Sequence record: MT887289.1
Direction: 5' to 3' (one strand)
Length of the DNA stretch: 64,000 bases
Source of the DNA: Escherichia phage SME50
Shown here: positions 45,317-63,986 of the stretch, one piece after another
Position numbering within the stretch: the first letter of the stretch is position 1
Layout of the letters: the number at the start of each line of letters is the position of its first letter
Translations under genes and position numbers: made by a program
The notes under the pieces: generated by a model
What the model was told of the DNA's origin: nothing
What the model saw: only the letters and a program-made list of their open reading frames with translations
Database searches by the model: none

Positions 45317-45406
45317 AAAGTACTTTACAGGGGGCTTAAAAGCTGATATCTTAAGCCCCAGATAAAGAGCTTTACTTAATTAACCCTTAAACTAGGAGAT
45401 TCAAAA
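45317..45406 (+). promoter_or_regulatory. type-1 leader cassette (GC hairpin plus conserved RBS leader)
   Basis: agtactttacagggggcttaaaagctgatatcttaagccccagataaagagctttacttaattaacccttaaactaggagattcaaaa-ATG. Confidence 0.7.
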
Positions 45407-45787
45407 ATGGCTTATCGTGCACCTAAATTCATCAACAAAGACAACTTTCGCAACGCACTGGAGAAGTCACTTGATGAAAATTTTAAAGGTAACATTATCG
45501 TTGTTCACGCATTCAATTTTAAGTATGATGTAAACGGGAATAGAATCAACCATTACACAGCAACCATGTTAGATGGTACGCTATCAAGTGAAAAAGCTGT
45601 ACTGAATGCACTTGCAGGACGTGGTAAAAACCTGATAAGATGCGATAAGAGACGTTATCAGGGTGGCGCATATGGTTATGATGATGCTGTTTATCATCTT
45701 GAAAATATGGGCTATTCAGTGGAAAAAGCTGGAGTGTCTCAAATAATCGGCAGTGACGGCTATGTGACAATTTTCAAAATTAACTAA
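45407..45787 (+). CDS. array ORF B, hypothetical
   Basis: 126 aa. Confidence 0.5.
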   Translation: MAYRAPKFINKDNFRNALEKSLDENFKGNIIVVHAFNFKYDVNGNRINHYTATMLDGTLSSEKAVLNALAGRGKNLIRCDKRRYQGGAYGYDDAVYHLENMGYSVEKAGVSQIIGSDGYVTIFKIN

Positions 45788-45878
45788 TAAAGTACTTTAC
45801 AGGGGGCTTATAGTTCGATAAAGTAAGCCCCAGATAAAGAGCTTTACTTAATTAACCCTTAAACTAGGAGATTCAAAA
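45788..45878 (+). promoter_or_regulatory. type-1 leader cassette
   Basis: same unit; hairpin variant ggggcttatagttcgataaagtaagcccc. Confidence 0.7.
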
Positions 45879-46169
45879 ATGGCTATTATTAAAAACGTTG
45901 TAATTCCTGCAAAAACTCGTGATGACGCTCGCATCATGGCGAAAAAGTTAGGCGGGAAAGTGGTTGACAACGGAAAACAAACTGCTGTAAGGTGGAACGT
46001 GAAGGCGGATAAACAAATGAATTTAAAAAATTCACCAATAAACCTTTTTACATGTGTAAACACTATCGGGAAAACGAATGTATACACTAAAAAGGCATAT
46101 ATCAGACGCATCGCCATGACGTCACCTATTCGCACAATGAGAAGTCATGCAAAGCTGAAAATTAAGTAA
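45879..46169 (+). CDS. array ORF C, hypothetical basic protein
   Basis: 96 aa. Confidence 0.5.
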   Translation: MAIIKNVVIPAKTRDDARIMAKKLGGKVVDNGKQTAVRWNVKADKQMNLKNSPINLFTCVNTIGKTNVYTKKAYIRRIAMTSPIRTMRSHAKLKIK

Positions 46170-46259
46170 TAGAGTACTTTACAGGGGGCTTAAAAGCTGA
46201 TATCTTAAGCCCCAGATAAAGAGCTTTACCACTCAATCCTTAAACTAGGAGATTCAAAA
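46170..46259 (+). promoter_or_regulatory. type-1 leader cassette
   Basis: same unit. Confidence 0.7.
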
Positions 46260-46772
46260 ATGAAAACTGTAGACGCTACCTTTGAAGTTGTAAAAGAAAA
46301 ATTTTCCATCATTTACGAAGCTGTCAATTGCTACGAAGCAAGCCATAATCTTGATAATTGGAAGTTTACAGATGACCATCAAGGCGGTGTGACTATTAAA
46401 AACCCCAACTGTCAGCGTAATGGATTTAAATATGCAATTCCTTTACATTACAGCCTTAAACAGCTTTCAATTGACTATGCAAAACAAGGCCGGGAAAATC
46501 CATCGAAAGAGGCTTACATCAGCTTACAGAAAGAACTAGAAAGAGATTTAGAGGCTTCAGAATATAACATCGCCGCGAAAGTTGTAGATGCAAACGGTAG
46601 CACGGTTTTAGAGAGTTTTTATATTGGTTATGCTTTCGATTGGTGCTACAGTGACGGCGATGATTTAGATGACAGACTAAAAGAGGAAGTGAACAACGCA
46701 GACGCAGAATCTGAAGTATTAGAACGCTTGGAAGCATTAAAAGATTCAGTGATGAATATCTTTAAGAACTAA
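46260..46772 (+). CDS. array ORF D, hypothetical acidic protein
   Basis: 170 aa. Confidence 0.5.
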   Translation: MKTVDATFEVVKEKFSIIYEAVNCYEASHNLDNWKFTDDHQGGVTIKNPNCQRNGFKYAIPLHYSLKQLSIDYAKQGRENPSKEAYISLQKELERDLEASEYNIAAKVVDANGSTVLESFYIGYAFDWCYSDGDDLDDRLKEEVNNADAESEVLERLEALKDSVMNIFKN

Positions 46773-46863
46773 ATAGACCTCTTTACACGGGGCTAACAAG
46801 CGGATATGATAGCCCCAGATAAAGAGATTTATCAAATTAACCCTTAAACTAGGAGATTCAAAA
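46773..46863 (+). promoter_or_regulatory. type-1 leader cassette (diverged hairpin)
   Basis: hairpin ggggctaacaagcggatatgatagcccc with compensatory stem changes. Confidence 0.65.
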
Positions 46864-47160
46864 ATGAAACTATCAAATAAAGTCCGTGAAAATCTAAGCA
46901 AGTTGCTTAATAAAATTGATTTCATTGAAACATCAAGGAATAGCCATGATGTTATGGAATGGTTACACGGAAAAATCAAAGGCCGTCGTGTAGTGATTTG
47001 CTTATGGAATAGTTGCAGGGAATATAAAAAACCTGTATTACAAGTCAATATCTATGATGATACTTTTAAAAGCCCTGTAAAGTCTAAAAGCGATTTATTA
47101 GAATCTTATGAGATAACTGTAAATGGCAAGGTATCACGTAAAGAGGAAGCACCATGTTAA
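46864..47160 (+). CDS. array ORF E, hypothetical
   Basis: 98 aa. Confidence 0.5.
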   Translation: MKLSNKVRENLSKLLNKIDFIETSRNSHDVMEWLHGKIKGRRVVICLWNSCREYKKPVLQVNIYDDTFKSPVKSKSDLLESYEITVNGKVSRKEEAPC

Positions 47161-47486
47161 TGATGGGTATCACTGCAATCATTGCCATTATAGCACTTTA
47201 CAAGGCTTATAGCGCATATAATTTGGCAAGTAAGGCAATCACGCAGCAGGTCAATAATAACCTTGTAATGAGCTTTCTGGAGCGTTTAAGCGATGAACAA
47301 ATAAAACGGTTAGAAATGAGCTTCAGATTTCAATCAAAAACTTATCAAATCAGCGACATTTTCAAAGATGATTTTCAGCTCGTCGATGATTATAACTCTC
47401 TGATAAATGCTTTAAATATCAGTGATTTAAAAGATTATCATGCTGTAATAGTTCAAGAATTGAGCAAACGAAAACAAAATTCTTGA
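47154..47486 (+). CDS. array ORF F, membrane protein
   Basis: 110 aa; N-terminal TM MLMMGITAIIAIIALY. Confidence 0.45.
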   Translation: MLMMGITAIIAIIALYKAYSAYNLASKAITQQVNNNLVMSFLERLSDEQIKRLEMSFRFQSKTYQISDIFKDDFQLVDDYNSLINALNISDLKDYHAVIVQELSKRKQNS

Positions 47487-47575
47487 CACTGATTTTTAGA
47501 TAGATTAAATTACTCATCAACGGGGAGGGATTAACCTTCCCACTAAGTAAAGTCCTTAAACTAGGAGATTCGAAA
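47483..47575 (+). promoter_or_regulatory. type-2 leader cassette (promoter plus 5' hairpin plus RBS)
   Basis: -35 ttgaca, 17 nt, -10 taaatt; then hairpin ggggagggattaaccttccc; then actaagtaaagtccttaaactaggagattcgaaa-ATG. Confidence 0.7.
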
Positions 47576-47734
47576 ATGATTCAAATAGGTGATAAAGTTG
47601 TCTGGAACGATATAGACAATGATTTATGCACAAAAATTGTAATTGTCTTAGAGCTTGATTATATAATTGGTGTTGCAACTGTTGCAGATAATGATATAAT
47701 CTTTGATGTTTTAATCAGTGAGCTATCGAAATAA
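47576..47734 (+). CDS. array ORF G, small protein (below ORF-track cutoff)
   Basis: 52 aa; preceded by type-2 cassette. Confidence 0.4.
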   Translation: MIQIGDKVVWNDIDNDLCTKIVIVLELDYIIGVATVADNDIIFDVLISELSK

Positions 47735-47757
47735 GCCTTAAACTAGGAGATTCGAAA

Positions 47758-48030
47758 ATGTATACTACTAACAACGGTCGCACTTTGAACGTAACCCTGC
47801 GCCACTATGTGAACGGTGTAATGCACTTCGAGGATTTACAAGCCGAACAACATATCTTGGATTGGCAAGTAGCAGGACTCCAAAAAACTGCTACAGGATA
47901 CGGGAAAAAGATTCCAACTAGTTGGAAAGTATACTACGAAGGGCGTTTGCGCAGAATTTATCAAGATGTATACAGTAATAGCGCATCAAGTTACATCATA
48001 GTAAAAGGTAAAAAGCTGCATTTAGTATAA
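47758..48030 (+). CDS. array ORF H, hypothetical
   Basis: 90 aa; conserved RBS leader ccttaaactaggagattcgaaa. Confidence 0.5.
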   Translation: MYTTNNGRTLNVTLRHYVNGVMHFEDLQAEQHILDWQVAGLQKTATGYGKKIPTSWKVYYEGRLRRIYQDVYSNSASSYIIVKGKKLHLV

Positions 48031-48533: not shown

Positions 48534-48627
48534 TTGACACTGATTTTTAGATATATTAAATTACGCATTAACGGGGAGGGAATGAACTTCCCCACTAAGT
48601 AAAGTCCTTAAACTAGGAGATTCTAAA
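48534..48627 (+). promoter_or_regulatory. type-2 leader cassette
   Basis: ttgaca-17-taaatt promoter then hairpin ggggagggaatgaacttcccc and conserved RBS leader. Confidence 0.7.
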
Positions 48628-48831
48628 ATGGCTATTATTAACGGCTTAACCATTGAAACAACACACATCAAAGACATTAAAGTTGGTGATGTAGTCCTTT
48701 CCCACGGCGTAGAGAAAACTGTTACTGCAAAGGATATTAAAGAGGATTCTTTCATGGGTAGGACTCTCTTCGGTGATTCTTATTGCTTGGGTTATCTTGC
48801 AGTTTTAAAAGTTGTCAAAAATAACCGTTAA
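48628..48831 (+). CDS. array ORF J, hypothetical
   Basis: 67 aa. Confidence 0.45.
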   Translation: MAIINGLTIETTHIKDIKVGDVVLSHGVEKTVTAKDIKEDSFMGRTLFGDSYCLGYLAVLKVVKNNR

Positions 48832-49784: not shown

Positions 49785-49874
49785 ACAAGCCTGATAAAAG
49801 TCTGTAAATTGTCAATCAACGGGGAGGTAATAACCTCCCTACTAAACAAAATCCTTAAACTAGGAGATTCGAAA
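49785..49874 (+). promoter_or_regulatory. type-2 leader cassette (partial promoter)
   Basis: taaatt ... ggggaggtaataacctccct hairpin plus conserved RBS leader. Confidence 0.6.
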
Positions 49875-50216
49875 ATGGCTTATGTAACCGTAATTACCAA
49901 TAAAGAAGATTCATCTTGGTCAACTCAAGTAAGTGACAAGATGTCACCTATGCAGTGCCTAAAATACTTTGAGCAATGGAACAAAGGTGAGGAAACAAGC
50001 CCCTTTCAAGTAATGCAGATTATCCATACAGACAACGAAGGGAATAAAACTGTTTTGAATAGTGAGTACTATGCAACCAGATTCGAAACGAGAAGTAAAG
50101 CAATGAAACTCTTACGTGAATCCGGTTATTCTCATATTGCCGCGCTAATCTGGGATGACCTCCTAAAAAGTCAGCGTATCAGTTATGTAAAACCTGAAAA
50201 AATATTCATCAGTTAA
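49875..50216 (+). CDS. array ORF M, hypothetical
   Basis: 114 aa from ATG 49875; tracked ORF begins 49809. Confidence 0.5.
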   Translation: MAYVTVITNKEDSSWSTQVSDKMSPMQCLKYFEQWNKGEETSPFQVMQIIHTDNEGNKTVLNSEYYATRFETRSKAMKLLRESGYSHIAALIWDDLLKSQRISYVKPEKIFIS

Positions 50217-50436
50217 TCAACAACTTACAAAAAACTTTTAAAAAAGTGTTGACAATGCCCCTTGACATTGGTAACTTTGTTCGAGGGGGTTTATCTAAAA
50301 GGGATTAACTTAAAAGATTCTTTATAGATAAACTTAAAAAATTGCTTGCAATCAGATATCAAAACAAGTAAATTACTAATCAACGGGAGGGATAACCTCC
50401 CCACTAAGTAAAGTCCTTAAACTAGGAGATTCAAAA
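50217..50436 (+). promoter_or_regulatory. promoter region plus type-2 leader cassette
   Basis: gttgacaatgccccttgacattgg, acttaaaag motifs, then cgggagggataacctcccc hairpin and RBS leader. Confidence 0.6.
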
Positions 50437-50967
50437 ATGAACAAATTTCAAGCTATCAATTACATCCGCTCAAATAGTGTTATGTCAAAGCCTGTTAAAG
50501 ACACCTATGAATTTCGTTGCAATGGTGTACACTTTGCAACCATCACCAAATCAGAAAACGGGGCTTATTACGTTCATCGCCGTAATGTTGCAACCGTTGT
50601 AGTCTCTCACTTTATGCAAGCTGTCGCGGAACTTCTCCCGATGTTTTTAGGGCTTTACTTAGATGAGTGTAAGCACATTCATAACCATGTTAAAAGCCTT
50701 TTAAACGGTTATAAAATGGCTTATGAGCGTTCTATCAAGTCCTTAAACAAGTTTTACAACGCACCTGAAAACACCGTATCAATGGCATACGCTGTAAAGG
50801 GTGAGGCGGTGAGTCTCTTCGAAGTGGAAGAAATCGAGCTTTATGACCATCGCCCCAATGGTTACGCTAAAACTCTCGGTGAAGGTTTAACGTTCAATAT
50901 CAAGAACTTAGAAAAAACTTTAAAAGATATTGAAAAAGATATTGACGAGACAATCAAAAGTCTGTAA
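50437..50967 (+). CDS. array ORF N, hypothetical
   Basis: 176 aa. Confidence 0.5.
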   Translation: MNKFQAINYIRSNSVMSKPVKDTYEFRCNGVHFATITKSENGAYYVHRRNVATVVVSHFMQAVAELLPMFLGLYLDECKHIHNHVKSLLNGYKMAYERSIKSLNKFYNAPENTVSMAYAVKGEAVSLFEVEEIELYDHRPNGYAKTLGEGLTFNIKNLEKTLKDIEKDIDETIKSL

Positions 50968-51033
50968 ATTGTCAATCAACGGGGAGGGAATGACCTTCCC
51001 CACTAAGTAAAGTCCTAAACTGGAGTTATCAAG
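50968..51033 (+). promoter_or_regulatory. type-2 leader cassette
   Basis: taaattgtcaatcaacggggagggaatgaccttcccc... Confidence 0.6.
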
Positions 51034-51297
51034 ATGGAAAACGTCGAACTGACCACACTTTTACAAATTGCAACCGACAAAGAGGATGTAGCATTATTCC
51101 ACCGTATCGAAAGTGATTTGTTCAATGGTGAAATCATTAAAGAATCTTACGAAGTGGTCGGATTCAAAGATGGTAAATCATTTGGATTCTTTGACCTCGA
51201 CAAAGGCAACGCTATTACAGAGTATGATGTTTTATCTTGTGAGATTCTGACAAAATACAACGAAAAAAGACTTGCAACATACGCCAACATGCAGTAA
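51034..51297 (+). CDS. array ORF O, hypothetical acidic protein
   Basis: 87 aa. Confidence 0.5.
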   Translation: MENVELTTLLQIATDKEDVALFHRIESDLFNGEIIKESYEVVGFKDGKSFGFFDLDKGNAITEYDVLSCEILTKYNEKRLATYANMQ

Positions 51298-51365
51298 ATT
51301 ACTAATCAACGGGGAGGGAATGACCTTCCCCACTAAGTAAAGTCCTTAAACTAGGAGATTCTAAA
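51298..51365 (+). promoter_or_regulatory. type-2 leader cassette
   Basis: taaattactaatcaacggggagggaatgaccttcccc... Confidence 0.6.
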
Positions 51366-51614
51366 ATGGCAACTATCCGCGCAATTGTAAATTCTTATGG
51401 CTGCTACACTCTGGACGTTAAATTTGATATAGGTGGGACCGATGAGTGTTTCGAACTGGTGAAAACAGTCATTAAACAAGTTATCCCAGACTATAACCCT
51501 ACTGATGACTTCTGGAAAGATGCAGTAAAAGAGGCATTGAACGATGAATATCATTACCATTATTGGGGTGATTTGATTGTCTCCCTGTACTACAATAAAC
51601 AAGGTTGCAACTAA
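51366..51614 (+). CDS. array ORF P, hypothetical
   Basis: 82 aa. Confidence 0.5.
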   Translation: MATIRAIVNSYGCYTLDVKFDIGGTDECFELVKTVIKQVIPDYNPTDDFWKDAVKEALNDEYHYHYWGDLIVSLYYNKQGCN

Positions 51615-51651
51615 TCGGCGCAACGGGGCAAATAGCCCCAGATACCTTTAT

Positions 51652-51676
51652 AGCCCCTTAAATGGGGCTTTTTTAC
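51652..51676 (+). terminator. intrinsic terminator ending the plus-strand array
   Basis: agccccttaaatggggct plus tttttac; preceded by second hairpin ggggcaaatagcccc. Confidence 0.6.
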
Positions 51677-53240
51677 GTCTTATCAAATCCTATACAATCC
51701 TTTTCCTTTCCTTTCCAGAGTCTTACTAGACCTTAAAAGCAATAACTCTATAGCTTACTCTATAACCTTTTATCAAATCAACTTAAATATAAGCCCATAA
51801 CCCGAAAGGGAAGGGCAACCGTTTAAACGCTCTATAAAGCTCTATAACAGCCTTATCAACCTAACTTAAGGGATTGCATTAACTCACCCTAAAAAGCCCT
51901 TTATAAAGCTTCCTAGAGGCTTAAAAGAATCTTATAAGGGTGTAAGCTTTATCATCTCGTTAGTTCCTTGTGAATATCTAGAAAGGGCTTGTTAGTGTCT
52001 TAAAAGTATGTTATAGGGGCTATAAAGTAGATTAAAAGTTACTTCAAAGTTACGTAAATGCTAGCCCCCTTAACATTTTCTTAACAATTTCTTAACAAAT
52101 CCTACATAGTTATGCTTTTAAGGTACTTGTTAGCAACTTGTTAGCCCCTTGTTAAATCTCTGTTAATACCTCGTAAAAGCCTTGTAAGAGTCTTTGGCAT
52201 AGCCTTTAAAGCCTCTGTAAAGCCCTATAAAGAGCTTTCTACATAGTTGGGGTGTAATTACTAGGAAGAGACTAAAAAGAGCTTATAAGGAGCTATAAAG
52301 GGCTTTTAAGAGGGCTATTTAAAGAATCACTAAGAGAGAAAGGGAATGATAAGAAAAGAGATAGTGACCATGTTAACAGCTTGTTAAAAAGGTTAAACAC
52401 TTGTTAGGAACTTGTTAATTATCTTAACAAAATAACTCTTTAAAATTAACTTGTTAGCTCTTGTTAGTCATCTGTTAAGCCTCTGTAAAGACTATGTATC
52501 AACTGTTAAGAAACTGTTAAGCTCTTGTTAGTTCTGTTAAGAATCTGTTAAGACCTCTGAAGAGATGTTAAGAGGATGTAAGAACTGTTAAGAGATTGTT
52601 AATGATATTTTAAAATTCTGCAAAGGGGATGTTACAGGGATGTTAAGGGCTACCAAGCAGATATACATCCTAGACAGATATTTTTCAGTTCCTTCAAAGA
52701 CCCTAAAAAATGACTTGATAGTCCTATTTTATAAAAATTTTAAAATTCTGAATAATTACCTAGACAGTCTTCTAAAAATACAGGCATAAACAGGTTTATA
52801 AGATACCTTGTTAGTACCGTGTTAGACCTTGTGAGATAAGGTCTGTAAAGATATTCCTGTTAAGTTTGTTAAAACAGTCTATATAGAGGCTTAGTAATAC
52901 CTAGTGAACACCTATAGAGGGTAACATAGCTGACATAGAGATTAAGAGGTGTATAGGGGCTTCTAAGAGGGTGTAGAGAGATGGTTAAGGTGATTGTATA
53001 GGTTGTTAAGAAGGATTGTTAGAGGGCTATTTAGAAGGGCTATACAGAGGGGCTATTAAGACCACTAGATAGATACTAAGATACTATATAGTACTATATA
53101 ACTATATATATAGAGAGTAAGCTTAAGAAGGTTGTTAAGAAGGTTAGATATTTTATTCACATATGATGGTGACCCAGAGGTTGGGACAACCGATAAAATT
53201 TTATAAAAATTAAAAAGCCCCCAATTAAGGAGGCTCTTAA
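51676..53240. repeat. ORF-free iteron-rich region (candidate origin, packaging or protein-binding array)
   Basis: dozens of short motifs in both orientations: (c/t)tgttaag, ttgttag, ctataaag, cttataagg, ctgtaaag, cttaaaag; AT-rich tract ctatatagtactatataactatatatatagag. Confidence 0.75.
53205..53240 (-). terminator. putative terminator for minus-strand block
   Basis: minus-strand reading gagcctccttaattgggggct plus tttttaattttt. Confidence 0.4.
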
Positions 53241-53246
53241 GATATT

Positions 53247-53840
53247 TTAAACCAGTGTTTCCAGAACTGTCTTCAGTGATGACTTGGTTGTCTGATAAAA
53301 ATGAGTAAATCCATTGTTGTTATCGAATACCTGCATCATGATATCATCTCCCTTGATTGGGTACACTCGGATATCATAGTGGAACCCGTTAAAGACAGCA
53401 GAACCATTACAGAATGAACTAAAGTCATCCACTGAGATGTACTCTTCGTGACCTGTGATTTTTATACAGACACCTTTGCTCGGTCTCTTAGGGTTAATAT
53501 CTTCCATCACAGACATATTCTGTCCACCAAGAGATACCATAGTGACCACTTTACGGTTCTTCTGTTTAAAGTACATCTTAACTTTCTGTAAAGTATCTTC
53601 ATAGAACGGATAAGACTTCTCTACAAAGATTCCTTCAAGTGGCTCTTTACCATTTCTAACTTCTCTGATATGACGTACTGAGAAGATAAGTTGCTCTAGT
53701 ATGTCAAGGCTTTCTTTGGAGAGTGCTTCCCGAACATCAGCCCAGTCAAGGACTAGGTAGTTGCCTTCAACTTCTTTCAAGTTATCTTTTTCCATAGCTA
53801 TCACACCATTATTGTAAAACTTGGTAATCCGGTACTGCAA
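53247..53840 (-). CDS. hypothetical protein
   Basis: 197 aa. Confidence 0.5.
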   Translation of the reverse strand: MQYRITKFYNNGVIAMEKDNLKEVEGNYLVLDWADVREALSKESLDILEQLIFSVRHIREVRNGKEPLEGIFVEKSYPFYEDTLQKVKMYFKQKNRKVVTMVSLGGQNMSVMEDINPKRPSKGVCIKITGHEEYISVDDFSSFCNGSAVFNGFHYDIRVYPIKGDDIMMQVFDNNNGFTHFYQTTKSSLKTVLETLV

Positions 53841-63405: not shown

Positions 63406-63482
63406 CTCTGTTTAGCTCAGCTTGGTAGAGCGTTCCGTTTGGGGCGGTAAGGCCGGAGGTTCAAGTCCTCCAACAGAGACCA
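63406..63482 (+). tRNA. tRNA-Pro (anticodon UGG), CCA encoded
   Basis: hand-folded cloverleaf: acceptor ctctgtt/aacagag, D-arm gctc...gagc, anticodon loop tttgggg, T-arm ggagg-ttcaagt-cctcc; one U-U mismatch in anticodon stem. Confidence 0.6.
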
Positions 63483-63489
63483 AATTAAT

Positions 63490-63567
63490 GTTCCAGTAGA
63501 CAAAACGGTAAAGTCACCACTCTTTCAAAGTGGATATTTGAGGGTTCAAATCCCTTCTGGAACGCCA
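63490..63567 (+). tRNA. tRNA-Glu (anticodon UUC), CCA encoded
   Basis: acceptor gttccag/ctggaac, anticodon stem ccact/agtgg with loop ctttcaa, T-loop ttcaaat. Confidence 0.65.
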
Positions 63568-63658
63568 GTTTTGACAGAAGACCAATTGCAGCAAACTTAA
63601 TCTTATTCATCTGACACGAAATCGGACAAAGAAGATATTTGGTCTGGTCATTAAGAAT

Positions 63659-63735
63659 TGCGGGTATAGAGAAAGGGCGTCTCACATGTCTCATTAGCAT
63701 GGTATCGGCAGGTTCGACTCCTGCACCCGCCTCCA
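63659..63735 (+). tRNA. tRNA-Met family (anticodon CAU), CCA encoded
   Basis: T-arm gcagg-ttcgact-cctgc, anticodon stem catgt/gcatg with loop ctcatta; position 1-72 appears mismatched, so could be initiator-like or Ile2-like. Confidence 0.55.
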
Positions 63736-63812
63736 ATTTTGCAGAAGACCGTATTCAGCAACAAAATACTTTTTGCGGATAAAAGAAAAAACACGGTCTG
63801 GCAATGTATTAA

Positions 63813-63886
63813 GGTTAGGAAGCACATAAGGTATGTGCGGTCGCCTGTTAAGCGAATGGCACAGGGTTCGAATCCCTGACTAACCG
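63813..63886 (+). tRNA. tRNA-Asn (anticodon GUU)
   Basis: acceptor ggttagg/actaacc, D-stem gcac/gtgc, anticodon loop ctgttaa, T-arm caggg-ttcgaat-ccctg; CCA not encoded. Confidence 0.6.
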
Positions 63887-63898
63887 CAAAATTTAAAT

Positions 63899-63986
63899 GT
63901 GTCGTTATCCCGTAGATGGTAGCGGTGGGGACTGTAAATCCCTTGTCATTGAGACTCGGTAGGTTCGACTCCTACACGGCACACCA
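63899..63986 (+). tRNA. tRNA-Tyr (anticodon GUA), long variable arm, CCA encoded
   Basis: acceptor gtgtcgt/acggcac, anticodon loop ctgtaaa, long variable arm ttgtcattgagactcgg, T-arm gtagg-ttcgact-cctac; resembles bacterial tRNA-Tyr. Confidence 0.7.

What the first reader, a model, noticed from the sequence alone, without database searches (positions are those of the whole stretch)
51676..53240. 1.6 kb ORF-free region densely packed with short iterons between convergent transcription units
The region has no ORF of 60 aa or more on either strand and consists largely of short motifs in both orientations, such as gcaacttgttagccccttgttaaatctctgttaatacc and aactgttaagaaactgttaagctcttgttagttctgttaagaatctgttaagacc. 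Recurrent words are tgttaag, ttgttag, ctataaag, cttataagg and ctgtaaag, plus an AT-rich tract ctatatagtactatataactatatatatagag. It is bounded by terminators on both sides. Iteron arrays like this are typical of replication origins, partition/centromere sites, packaging signals or genome-end boundaries; none of these can be distinguished from sequence alone.
Basis: seen in the sequence. Interest (0 to 1): 0.65.

Follow-up and report, generated by a model that had tools for sequence, protein, structure and literature searches.

The report
Phage genome ends: repeat-packed terminal region
The 1.6 kb gene-free stretch is where the linear chromosome of a Felix O1-like phage begins and ends: a 591-bp terminal repeat full of 11-bp-spaced TGTTAAG motifs. 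The terminal repeat was already known for this phage group, but the motif layout inside and around it has apparently not been described.

Summary
Window 51615-53246 has no ORF of 60 aa or more. It lies between convergent genes, each ending in a terminator. Its repeat content is far above shuffled controls (7-mer pair z = 20; TGTTAAG 15 copies against 0.6 expected).

The window is a Felixounavirus. Three independent GenBank relatives carry exact 581-591-bp duplications at both record ends, and these map to window 52064-52654. A Mooglevirus repeat annotation (570 bp) maps to the same two positions. The "DTR" feature of Salmonella phage UAB_69 maps to 52062-52656. That record comes from the lab that mapped the UAB_Phi87 ends experimentally. 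So the region is the collapsed direct terminal repeat (DTR) plus about 390 and 590 nt of subterminal non-coding DNA.

The DTR holds 27 of the 37 TGTTA cores, mostly spaced 11 bp apart. An inverted repeat (TAGCCCCCTTAACAT / ATGTTAAGGGCTA) brackets it. Iteron cores are far better conserved than spacers, and the region is at least as conserved as the flanking genes across genera. An Erwinia relative that barely aligns has the same layout.

The most likely role is recognition and cutting of replicated DNA for packaging. Which protein binds is unknown. The element is already known as a DTR; only its internal anatomy appears undescribed. Interest is modest.

The parts
51652..51676 (+). Intrinsic terminator closing the rightward (+) gene block. 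This is the last transcription signal before the right genome end.
   Evidence: Hairpin AGCCCCTTAAATGGGGCT followed by a T run. The last + strand ORF ends at 51614.
51677..52063 (.). Left non-coding flank, the subterminal DNA just inside the right-end copy of the DTR. It is C/T-rich on the + strand and carries CTCTATA(G/A) four times (51746, 51758, 51830, 51840) plus CTTAAAAG / CTTATAAGG words.
   Evidence: GC skew -0.3 to -0.7. Repeat content z = 4.5 against shuffles. Blocks 51750-51850 and 51900-51950 are 91-94% conserved across 13 phages of three genera.
52061..52075 (.). Left boundary arm of the inverted repeat, TAGCCCCCTTAACAT. The DTR starts at 52064 (between TA and GCCCCC).
   Evidence: Record starts and terminal duplications of D4, ZX4221 and HP1 map to 52064, GE_vB_7A to 52070 and the UAB_69 annotation to 52062. 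The sequence is near-invariant in all 13 aligned phages.
52064..52654 (.). Direct terminal repeat (DTR), 591 bp. The window holds a single collapsed copy, in concatemer-junction form.
   Evidence: Exact terminal duplications of 581 bp (D4), 591 bp (ZX4221) and 581-583 bp (GE_vB_7A) map here. The Mooglevirus HP1 annotated 570-bp repeat maps to the same two boundaries. The UAB_69 'DTR' feature maps to 52062-52656. UAB_Phi87 has an experimentally determined 608-bp DTR (PMC4837284).
52069..52098 (-). Three iterons in inverted orientation (CTTAACA at 11-bp spacing) at the left edge of the DTR.
   Evidence: TRF period 11, 2.7 copies. Cores at 52071, 52082 and 52093 on the - strand. Cores invariant across three genera.
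52125..52167 (+). Four direct iterons, (C)TTGTTAG/A, at exact 11-bp spacing.
   Evidence: Cores at 52128, 52139, 52150 and 52161. An 11-bp unit just upstream (from 52115) is deleted in D4, HP1, SUSP1, Sf17, KMM4 and M719.
52411..52437 (.). Longest fully invariant block of the region, CTTGTTAATTATCTTAACAAAATAACT. It contains the perfect palindrome TTGTTAA-N5-TTAACAA (two iterons head to head).
   Evidence: A 27-nt run identical in all 13 phages.
52452..52603 (+). Main array of direct iterons: 11 TGTTA cores, spaced 9-11 bp or multiples of that. Consensus (a/g)a-a-c-t-TGTTAAGa.
   Evidence: Cores are conserved and spacers variable.
52640..52652 (.). Right boundary arm of the inverted repeat, ATGTTAAGGGCTA. 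The DTR ends at 52654, and the conserved AAGCAGATATACA follows.
   Evidence: Record ends and duplications map to 52654 (D4, ZX4221, HP1, pEP20), 52652 (GE_vB_7A) and 52656 (UAB_69). AAGCAGATATACA is invariant in 13 phages and recognisable in Erwinia phage M7.
52655..53204 (.). Right non-coding flank, the subterminal DNA just inside the left-end copy of the DTR. It is G/A-rich on the + strand. It carries TATAGAG three times (the inverse of the left-flank word), further TGTTA cores, and inverted partners of left-flank blocks.
   Evidence: CTCTATA x4 against TATAGAG x3; AGCTTACTCTATA at 51752 against TATAGAGAGTAAGCT at 53109; CCTATACAATC at 51689 against GATTGTATAGG at 52992. GC skew +0.3 to +0.8. 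87-92% conserved over 52650-52999. Repeat z = 9.
53019..53061 (+). Tandem 13-bp units TTAGAAGGGCTAT (3.4 copies). They reuse the GGGCTA word of the DTR boundary.
   Evidence: TRF; family D13.
53084..53115 (.). AT-rich TATATAG tract, partly conserved. If the region also holds an origin, this is the only candidate unwinding element.
   Evidence: GC 0.25. No significant hairpin.
53213..53238 (-). Intrinsic terminator closing the leftward (-) gene block.
   Evidence: The first - strand ORF ends at 53247.

Best explanation
The window comes from a Felixounavirus (a Felix O1-like myophage). The gene-free region is the place where unit genomes are joined in replicating concatemers and cut apart for packaging.

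Shown: bases 52064-52654 are the 591-bp direct terminal repeat, present at both ends of the virion DNA and collapsed to one copy in this sequence. 51677-52063 is the DNA just inside the right end. 52655-53204 is the DNA just inside the left end. Both neighbouring gene blocks are transcribed toward the ends and stop at terminators.

Inferred: the 11-bp-phased TGTTAAG units are binding sites for a phage DNA-recognition protein. The likely candidate is the still unidentified small-terminase-like partner of TerL, or TerL itself. About one site per helical turn would let an oligomer line up along, or wrap, roughly 100-150 bp. The outermost iteron at each DTR edge faces outward and is extended to TGTTAAGGG(GG)CTA. 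The two edges therefore form an inverted repeat that presents the same geometry on opposite strands. This is what is needed for two staggered nicks, on the top strand at the left edge and on the bottom strand at the right edge. Strand-displacement synthesis across the 591 bp would then give each daughter genome a full copy of the repeat, as in the classical T7-type model.

The mirror-image word content and GC skew of the two flanks suggest that the recognition complex is assembled symmetrically around the repeat.
For: Identity of the region:
- Megablast finds 256 phage records, nearly all Felixounavirus or other Ounavirinae, and 206 of them cover the region at about 85-94% identity.
- Exact terminal duplications in D4 (581 bp), ZX4221 (591 bp) and GE_vB_7A (581-583 bp) map to 52064/52070 and 52654/52652.
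- NBEco005, H12, E9, I14.1, ECP2307 and SeKF_63 also open at 52064. pEP20 and EcSzw_1 open at 52653/4.
- The annotated 570-bp repeats of Mooglevirus HP1 map to the same two positions at 78% identity.
- The UAB_69 'DTR' annotation maps to 52062-52656.
- Literature: a 608-bp DTR was found in UAB_Phi87 by Bal31 digestion plus run-off sequencing (PMC4837284). PhageTerm gave 581 bp in Pr103Blw (PMC8303462). PhageTerm also reported DTRs for the D4/E9/H12/I14.1 set (PMC11737134).

Evidence that the repeats are functional:
- 11-bp phasing: 12 of 28 successive spacings are exactly 11 bp.
- There are 14 phased pairs in the region, against 0.48 expected for the whole window.
- Within the DTR, TGTTA cores are 83% invariant while other positions are 49% invariant, across 13 phages of three genera.
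- Length differences between DTRs are whole 10-11-bp units.
- Across genera the DTR is 73-77% identical, against 56-66% for the flanking genes.
- Erwinia phage M7 (Kolesnikvirus) aligns over only about 120 nt. It nevertheless has a 444-bp DTR inside a 1.44-kb gene-free gap with 24 TGTTAA words. These are inverted in the left part and direct in the right part of its DTR, and its ends are TTAGCCAC... / ...GGCCACTAA.
- The boundary inverted repeat is conserved in all 13 aligned phages.
- The flanks are mirror-symmetric in words and in GC skew.

General principle: in T7, insertions at positions 142 and 162, at the inner edge of the 160-bp terminal repeat, are among the few deleterious intergenic hits. 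No TerS has been identified in Felix O1 (PMC3185647).
Against: No reads from packaged DNA of this particular phage are available, so its own termini are inferred by homology (about 93% identity).

The exact cut positions differ by 2-6 nt between records and methods. Measured from the inverted repeat, the two consensus boundaries are offset by about 2-4 nt rather than being perfectly symmetric. The two-symmetric-nicks picture is therefore only approximate.

No protein that binds TGTTAAG is known, and none of the ten neighbouring proteins has a recognisable DNA-binding family.

There are no significant hairpins at the boundaries, unlike the hairpin invoked for T7.

Conservation shows constraint, not which process imposes it. 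Replication, end protection or DNA ejection could equally select for the iterons.
Confidence: 0.7

Rival explanations
1. Replication origin. The iterons bind an initiator, and the AT-rich tracts (52690-52780, GC 0.20-0.23; 53084-53115) serve as unwinding elements. This could coexist with the terminal repeat.
For: Phased iterons plus nearby AT-rich DNA are the classical origin signature. The flanks are conserved well beyond the DTR boundaries. No origin has been mapped in this phage group in the papers read.
Against: No Rep/initiator, helicase-loader or similar family among the ten flanking proteins. Only one DnaA-box match in the region, and no enrichment in the window (7 found against 11.5 expected). 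The densest iterons lie exactly between the two mapped genome ends, and their orientation flips at the DTR edge. The end function explains this; an origin does not.
Confidence: 0.15
2. An array for a non-packaging DNA-binding protein. Examples are a protein that protects or tethers the ends after ejection, controls DNA entry (like the repeat-rich injection-stop region beside the T5 terminal repeat), or recruits host nucleoid proteins.
For: The arrays sit at the first and last DNA to enter the cell. There is strong purifying selection on cores. 11-bp phasing suits any cooperative binder. An unrelated 169-kb viral contig has a similar TTAACA x5 / TGTTAAG x5 cluster upstream of a gene, so the motif type is not restricted to genome ends.
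Against: No two-step DNA transfer is known for Felix O1-like phages (own knowledge). The inverted repeat coincides with the cut sites within a few nucleotides, which points to the cutting machinery.
Confidence: 0.12
3. Partition or centromere-like site for a plasmid-like stage.
For: Only the presence of phased repeats in both orientations.
Against: Virulent myophage family with no ParA/ParB-type neighbours. The repeats coincide with the virion DNA ends.
Confidence: 0.01
4. Missed coding sequence or a structured non-coding RNA.
For: Some GenBank records annotate tiny ORFs here (UAB_69 gp027/gp028, pEC-M719-6WT.1).
Against: No ORF of 60 aa or more. The 49-aa ORF loses its start codon in most relatives. 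No Rfam match better than E = 0.39. Promoter-like sites are no more frequent than in shuffles (9 against 9.1). The conservation pattern is periodic (core versus spacer), not codon-like.
Confidence: 0.02

Closest known systems
Direct terminal repeats of Felixounavirus and other Ounavirinae (UAB_Phi87 608 bp, UAB_69, Pr103Blw 581 bp, vB_CbrM_HP1 570 bp, Erwinia phage M7 444 bp)
   Same: This is the homologous element. It has the same position between the same convergent genes, the same boundaries (52064/52654 in window coordinates) and 74-97% sequence identity.
   Different: Nothing essential. The papers read report only the existence and length of the repeat. The iteron phasing, the boundary inverted repeat and the mirror-image flanks described here are not mentioned in them.
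T7 / T3 concatemer junction (160-230-bp terminal repeat with flanking arrays of short repeats; terminase gp18/gp19)
   Same: A short exact terminal repeat. Short repeated words are packed in and beside it. The boundary region is functionally critical (T7 positions 142/162). The repeat must be duplicated during maturation. The T7 flanking heptamer arrays and the nick-plus-displacement model are from my own knowledge of Dunn & Studier 1983 and later T7/T3 packaging work, not checked here.
   Different: The motif differs (TGTTAAG rather than the T7 CCTAAAG-type words). Most iterons lie inside the repeat rather than only outside it. There are no promoters near the ends. No boundary hairpin is predicted. 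It is a myophage with a different terminase lineage and no identified small subunit.
Terminase recognition sites built from repeated boxes (lambda cosB R-sites, SPP1 pacL/pacR)
   Same: Multiple phased copies of a short word flank the cleavage site. They suit an oligomeric DNA-binding subunit that positions the nuclease (own knowledge).
   Different: Those systems give cohesive ends or headful packaging, not exact terminal repeats. Their binding protein (gpNu1, G1P) is known, whereas here it is not.
Inverted repeats bracketing the long terminal repeats of Twort-like / phage K-like staphylococcal myophages
   Same: A short inverted repeat marks both edges of the terminal repeat (own knowledge, Lobocka et al. 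2012; not checked here).
   Different: Those repeats are several kb long and contain genes. The sequences are unrelated.
Plasmid or phage replication-origin iterons
   Same: Phased direct repeats of a short word, with AT-rich DNA nearby.
   Different: No initiator gene alongside and no DnaA-box cluster. The arrays coincide with the mapped genome ends.

Membership tests
Short exact direct terminal repeat (T7-type genome ends) of Ounavirinae | The same sequence is present at both ends of the linear virion DNA | tested here: met
   Met in close relatives. There are 100% identical duplications of 581, 591 and 570 bp at both record ends in D4, ZX4221 and HP1, 99.5% in GE_vB_7A and 444 bp in M7. For the window's own phage this rests on homology, because no virion reads are available.
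Short exact direct terminal repeat (T7-type genome ends) of Ounavirinae | Ends are fixed (not permuted) and lie at homologous positions in relatives | tested here: met
   Boundaries from at least six independent labs fall at 52062-52070 and 52652-52656. Bal31 sensitivity of two defined fragments in UAB_Phi87 (PMC4837284).
Short exact direct terminal repeat (T7-type genome ends) of Ounavirinae | Two-fold read coverage and sharp read starts at the boundaries in this phage's own sequencing data | not testable with these tools
   No reads are available for the window.
Short exact direct terminal repeat (T7-type genome ends) of Ounavirinae | Large terminase groups with DTR-type terminases | not tested
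   TerL does not appear to lie in the window. This is judged from the Bas63 gene map and from ORF sizes only; no ORF was searched against a family library. Bardina et al. report that the terminase phylogeny agrees with the packaging type (PMC4837284).
Terminase recognition (pac/cos-type) site | Repeated binding boxes next to the cleavage positions | tested here: met
   Iterons abut both boundaries. The outermost one on each side forms the boundary inverted repeat.
Terminase recognition (pac/cos-type) site | Demonstrated binding by a terminase subunit, and the site sufficient for cutting or packaging | not testable with these tools
   Needs EMSA or footprinting and a plasmid-packaging assay. 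No TerS has been identified in Felix O1 (PMC3185647).
Iteron-type replication origin | Phased iterons next to an AT-rich unwinding element | tested here: inconclusive
   Iterons are present. AT-rich stretches exist at 52690-52780 and 53084-53115, but they are separated from the main arrays and their function is unknown.
Iteron-type replication origin | Adjacent initiator (Rep) gene and/or a DnaA-box cluster | tested here: not met
   Ten flanking proteins have no Pfam family above threshold and match only 'unknown function' PHROGs. One DnaA box in the region and no enrichment.
Partition centromere (parS/parC) | Adjacent ParA/ParB-type genes | tested here: not met
Known structured RNA family | Rfam covariance-model match | tested here: not met
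   Best hit has E = 0.39 and overlaps the terminator.

The most novel reading that the evidence does not exclude
The TGTTAAG iteron field, its outward-facing boundary copies and the mirror-image flanks together form the complete recognition and processing site of a terminase system that lacks a conventional small subunit. An as yet unknown Ounavirinae protein would coat the whole 591-bp repeat and direct two symmetric nicks. Alternatively, the same field might double as the phage replication origin or as a telomere-like end-protection site. Either would be a new way of marking exact terminal repeats in myophages.
Probability: 0.2. Interest if true: 0.55.

Novelty: already known. Interest (0 to 1): 0.3.

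Why it matters
Practical value: the result gives the correct start and end (52064 and 52654 in window coordinates) for this genome and for the roughly 200 Felixounavirus records that are opened arbitrarily. It also flags small ORFs annotated inside the repeat as probably spurious.

Biological value: how Felix O1-like phages recognise their DNA and duplicate the repeat is unknown, and they have no identified small terminase. These phages are widely used for Salmonella and E. coli typing, biocontrol and therapy. The conserved 11-bp iterons, the boundary inverted repeat and the symmetric flanks give concrete targets for mutagenesis, for example with the existing Bas63 genome-editing platform, and for protein pull-downs.

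It is not a new kind of element.

Tried and rejected
1. T5-like injection-stop region. This was my first guess from the GC content and the repeat-rich gene-free DNA. I dropped it once BLAST showed a Felixounavirus.
2. Record UAB_Phi87 (JN225449) as a direct reference for the ends. The record is 87,603 bp, is opened near the tRNA cluster and is not opened at the physical ends, so it was not usable.
3. The record end of NJ12 at window 52663. It turned out to be a 127-bp assembly overlap, not a terminus, and was discarded.
4. BPS15Q2 and pEP20. They are opened at the boundaries but carry only one repeat copy, so they are supportive but not decisive.
5. Promoters, Rfam families, DnaA boxes and DNA hairpins at the boundaries. 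Nothing rose above chance.
6. Function of the ten neighbouring proteins. All are of unknown function.
7. PhageMaP data for Bas63. It has gene scores only and no intergenic insertions for Bas63. The flanking genes 111 and 112 score near neutral.
8. Scan of IMG/VR for TGTTAAG-N4-TGTTAAG. The nine densest iteron loci are Ounavirinae relatives of the window. The next one, in a 169-kb contig, is unrelated to the window.
Full report
1. OBSERVATION

The stretch 51615-53246 has no ORF of 60 aa or more on either strand; the largest are 50, 49, 35 and 31 aa. It lies between + strand genes ending at 51614 and - strand genes whose last ORF is 53840..53247. Terminator-like hairpins sit at 51652-51669 (+) and 53238-53213 (-).

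The repeat density is not a composition effect. The region has 1045 matching 7-mer pairs, against 416 +/- 31 in 1000 dinucleotide-preserving shuffles (z = 20.5). The DTR part alone gives z = 23.5, the left flank 4.5 and the right flank 9.0. TGTTAAG/CTTAACA occurs 15 times, against 0.6 expected from the rest of the window. The phased pair TGTTA-N6-TGTTA occurs 15 times in 64 kb, 14 of them here, against 0.48 expected.

2. WHAT THE SEQUENCE IS

Megablast of the region finds 256 phage records, essentially all Felixounavirus and other Ounavirinae. Of these, 206 cover at least 80% of the region at roughly 85-94% identity. The region is unannotated in them or carries only automatic 'repeat_region' marks.

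The Felix O1 genome paper inferred 'short terminal repeats' and noted large intergenic regions and the absence of a small terminase (PMC3185647). Bardina et al. determined a 608-bp direct terminal repeat in UAB_Phi87 by Bal31 digestion and run-off sequencing (PMC4837284). PhageTerm gave 581 bp in Pr103Blw (PMC8303462).

3. LOCATING THE TERMINAL REPEAT IN THE WINDOW

A wider BLAST showed that many records begin or end inside the region, in two clusters about 590 bp apart. Both ends of several records were fetched and compared.
- vB_EcoM_D4 carries an exact 581-bp duplication at its two ends.
- ZX4221 carries an exact 591-bp one.
- GE_vB_7A carries a 581-583-bp one at 99.5% identity.

On the window these map to 52064 (GE_vB_7A: 52070) and 52654 (52652).

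NBEco005, H12, E9, I14.1, ECP2307 and SeKF_63 also open at 52064. pEP20 and EcSzw_1 open at 52653/4.

Citrobacter phage HP1 (Mooglevirus, 78% identical) has annotated 570-bp repeats at both ends that map to the same two positions. The 'DTR' feature in Salmonella phage UAB_69 maps to 52062-52656.

Erwinia phage M7 (Kolesnikvirus) has an exact 444-bp terminal duplication. Its last roughly 110 nt align to window 52541-52654.

The record end of NJ12 at 52663 is a 127-bp assembler overlap and was ignored.

Conclusion: window 52064-52654 is the direct terminal repeat in collapsed (concatemer-junction) form. 51677-52063 is the subterminal DNA of the right genome end, and 52655-53204 is that of the left end.

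4. ANATOMY

TGTTA cores number 37 in the region, and 27 of them lie in the DTR. The unit is about 11 bp, with consensus (a/g)a-a-c-t-TGTTAAGa. Twelve of 28 successive spacings are exactly 11 bp, and most others are 9-10 bp or near multiples (20, 31, 33).

The three copies at the left edge (52071, 52082, 52093) are inverted, and nearly all the rest are direct. As a result the outermost iteron at each edge faces outward, extended to TGTTAAGGG(GG)CTA. The DTR is therefore bracketed by the inverted repeat TAGCCCCCTTAACAT (52061-52075) / ATGTTAAGGGCTA (52640-52652).

Just outside lie the conserved GTTACGTAAA (left) and AAGCAGATATACA (right).

The longest invariant block (52411-52437) is a head-to-head iteron pair, TTGTTAA-N5-TTAACAA.

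The flanks are mirror images in content.
- CTCTATA occurs four times on the left and TATAGAG three times on the right.
- AGCTTACTCTATA (51752) pairs with TATAGAGAGTAAGCT (53109).
- CCTATACAATC (51689) pairs with GATTGTATAGG (52992).
- GC skew is strongly negative on the left and positive on the right.

The right flank also has 13-bp GGGCTAT units (53019-53061) and the AT-rich TATATAG tract (53084-53115).

5. EVIDENCE OF FUNCTION

A 13-phage alignment was built from eight Felixounavirus genomes including the window, three Mooglevirus, one Suspvirus and one unclassified relative. In it the non-coding region is 76-94% conserved per 50-nt bin, and 84-94% in most bins. The flanking genes score 63-85%.

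Against the cross-genus sequences alone, the DTR is 73-77% identical, the flanks 62-76% and the two adjacent genes 56-66%.

Within the DTR, iteron-core positions are 83% invariant and all other positions 49%. The printed conservation map shows conserved cores alternating with variable spacers.

Length differences between DTRs are whole units of 10-11 bp, and the number of cores stays at 21-26.

Erwinia phage M7 is alignable over only about 120 nt but has the same design. It has a 1.44-kb gene-free gap and 24 TGTTAA words, inverted in the left part and direct in the right part of its DTR. It has a second word (TTCTAAG) in the C/T-rich left flank and phased GTTAAGA copies before the right-hand terminator. 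Its terminal sequences TTAGCCAC... / ...GGCCACTAA are themselves inverted.

This points to a conserved sequence-specific binder and a conserved geometry.

6. MECHANISM (INFERRED)

Exact terminal repeats require the junction copy to be duplicated. The classical scheme (own knowledge, from T7/T3 work) has three steps: a nick at one edge on one strand, a nick at the other edge on the other strand, and strand-displacement synthesis across the repeat.

The inverted repeat at the two edges offers the same protein-DNA geometry for both nicks. The 11-bp phased iterons would load or organise an oligomeric recognition protein over the repeat. The mirror-image flanks would extend this symmetry.

In T7, insertions at the inner edge of the repeat are among the few harmful intergenic ones.

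Weak points:
- The reported boundaries scatter by 2-6 nt and are offset by about 2-4 nt from perfect symmetry.
- No boundary hairpins are predicted.
- No binding protein is known.
- The ten neighbouring proteins have no informative family.

I put about 0.95 on 'this is the DTR / genome-end region' and about 0.5 on 'the iterons serve terminase recognition and end formation'. The combined confidence is 0.7.

7. RIVALS

A replication origin is not excluded and could coexist. However, there is no initiator gene, DnaA boxes are not enriched, and an origin does not explain why the orientation flips at the mapped ends.

An end-protection, ejection-control or nucleoid-protein array is possible. An unrelated 169-kb viral contig has a similar inverted/direct TGTTAAG cluster upstream of a sigma-factor-like gene, so such motifs are not unique to genome ends.

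A partition site has no supporting genes. Coding sequence or structured RNA is contradicted.

8. COMPARISON AND NOVELTY

The element is homologous to DTRs already determined or annotated in the genus (UAB_Phi87, UAB_69, HP1, Pr103Blw and the PhageTerm-opened records), so its identity is already known.

It works like the T7/T3 concatemer junction and, in its repeated boxes, like cosB/pac sites. It is not a member of those families, because the motif, terminase lineage and layout all differ.

The iteron phasing, core-versus-spacer conservation, boundary inverted repeat and symmetric flanks are not mentioned in the papers I could read. This is a useful but incremental description.

Interest is 0.3. 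The main value is correct genome-end annotation and a concrete, testable model for packaging in a therapeutically used phage group that lacks an identified small terminase.

Noticed in passing
Relatives, at window-equivalent positions 52334 (Andreotti, L003) and 52451 (UAB_69, L017): The same roughly 20-nt palindromic element (GATTGGTAACAATACCAATT, stem TTGGTA/TACCAA) is inserted inside the DTR. It sits at different positions and in opposite orientations in two phages and is absent from the window. It could be a tiny mobile or recombination-derived insert.
   Followed up: no
L103:7390-7540 (IMGVR_UViG_3300021399_000003, 169-kb contig): A viral contig with no DNA match to the window has TTAACA x5 followed by TGTTAAG x5, ending in TGTTAAGGGCTGCCC (compare the DTR edge TGTTAAGGGCTACC). 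The cluster lies just upstream of a promoter-like site and a 437-aa gene matching a phage sigma-factor PHROG (phrog_5767). It may be the operator of a related DNA-binding protein, or coincidence.
   Followed up: partly
window 47506-47578, 48557-48632, 49804-49879, 50367-50439, 50964-51025, 51290-51375: A roughly 75-nt intergenic cassette (hairpin cggggaggg...ccttcccc plus a Shine-Dalgarno sequence and ATG) is repeated at 85-95% identity between at least six consecutive small genes upstream of the region. Shorter copies of its 3' part occur at 45385-47760.
   Followed up: partly
window 52640-52789 (+): This 49-aa ORF is annotated as a CDS in UAB_69 (gp028). It starts at the ATG of the boundary iteron, and the ATG is CTG in most relatives, so the annotation is probably spurious. 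pEC-M719-6WT.1 annotates six tiny CDS across the homologous region.
   Followed up: partly
GenBank OQ845959 (NJ12; L007/L008) and JN225449 (UAB_Phi87; L004): NJ12 has an identical 127 bp at both record ends, which is an assembler k-mer overlap and not a DTR. The UAB_Phi87 record is 87,603 bp and is opened near the tRNA cluster, although the paper reports 87,669 bp with a 608-bp DTR.
   Followed up: partly
window 63406-63986: A cluster of five tRNA genes (Pro, Glu, Met, Asn, Tyr) begins here on the + strand. This is typical of Felixounavirus.
   Followed up: no
search results: One matching record is named as a Staphylococcus phage among otherwise enterobacterial Ounavirinae. It is probably mislabelled or a contaminant.
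   Followed up: no
window 52007-52022: TATGTTATAGGGGCTA is a near-copy of the right-boundary word ATGTTAAGGGCTA in direct orientation. It lies about 42 nt outside the left boundary and pairs with the left boundary arm (inverted repeat I14). It falls in the least conserved part of the left flank.
   Followed up: partly
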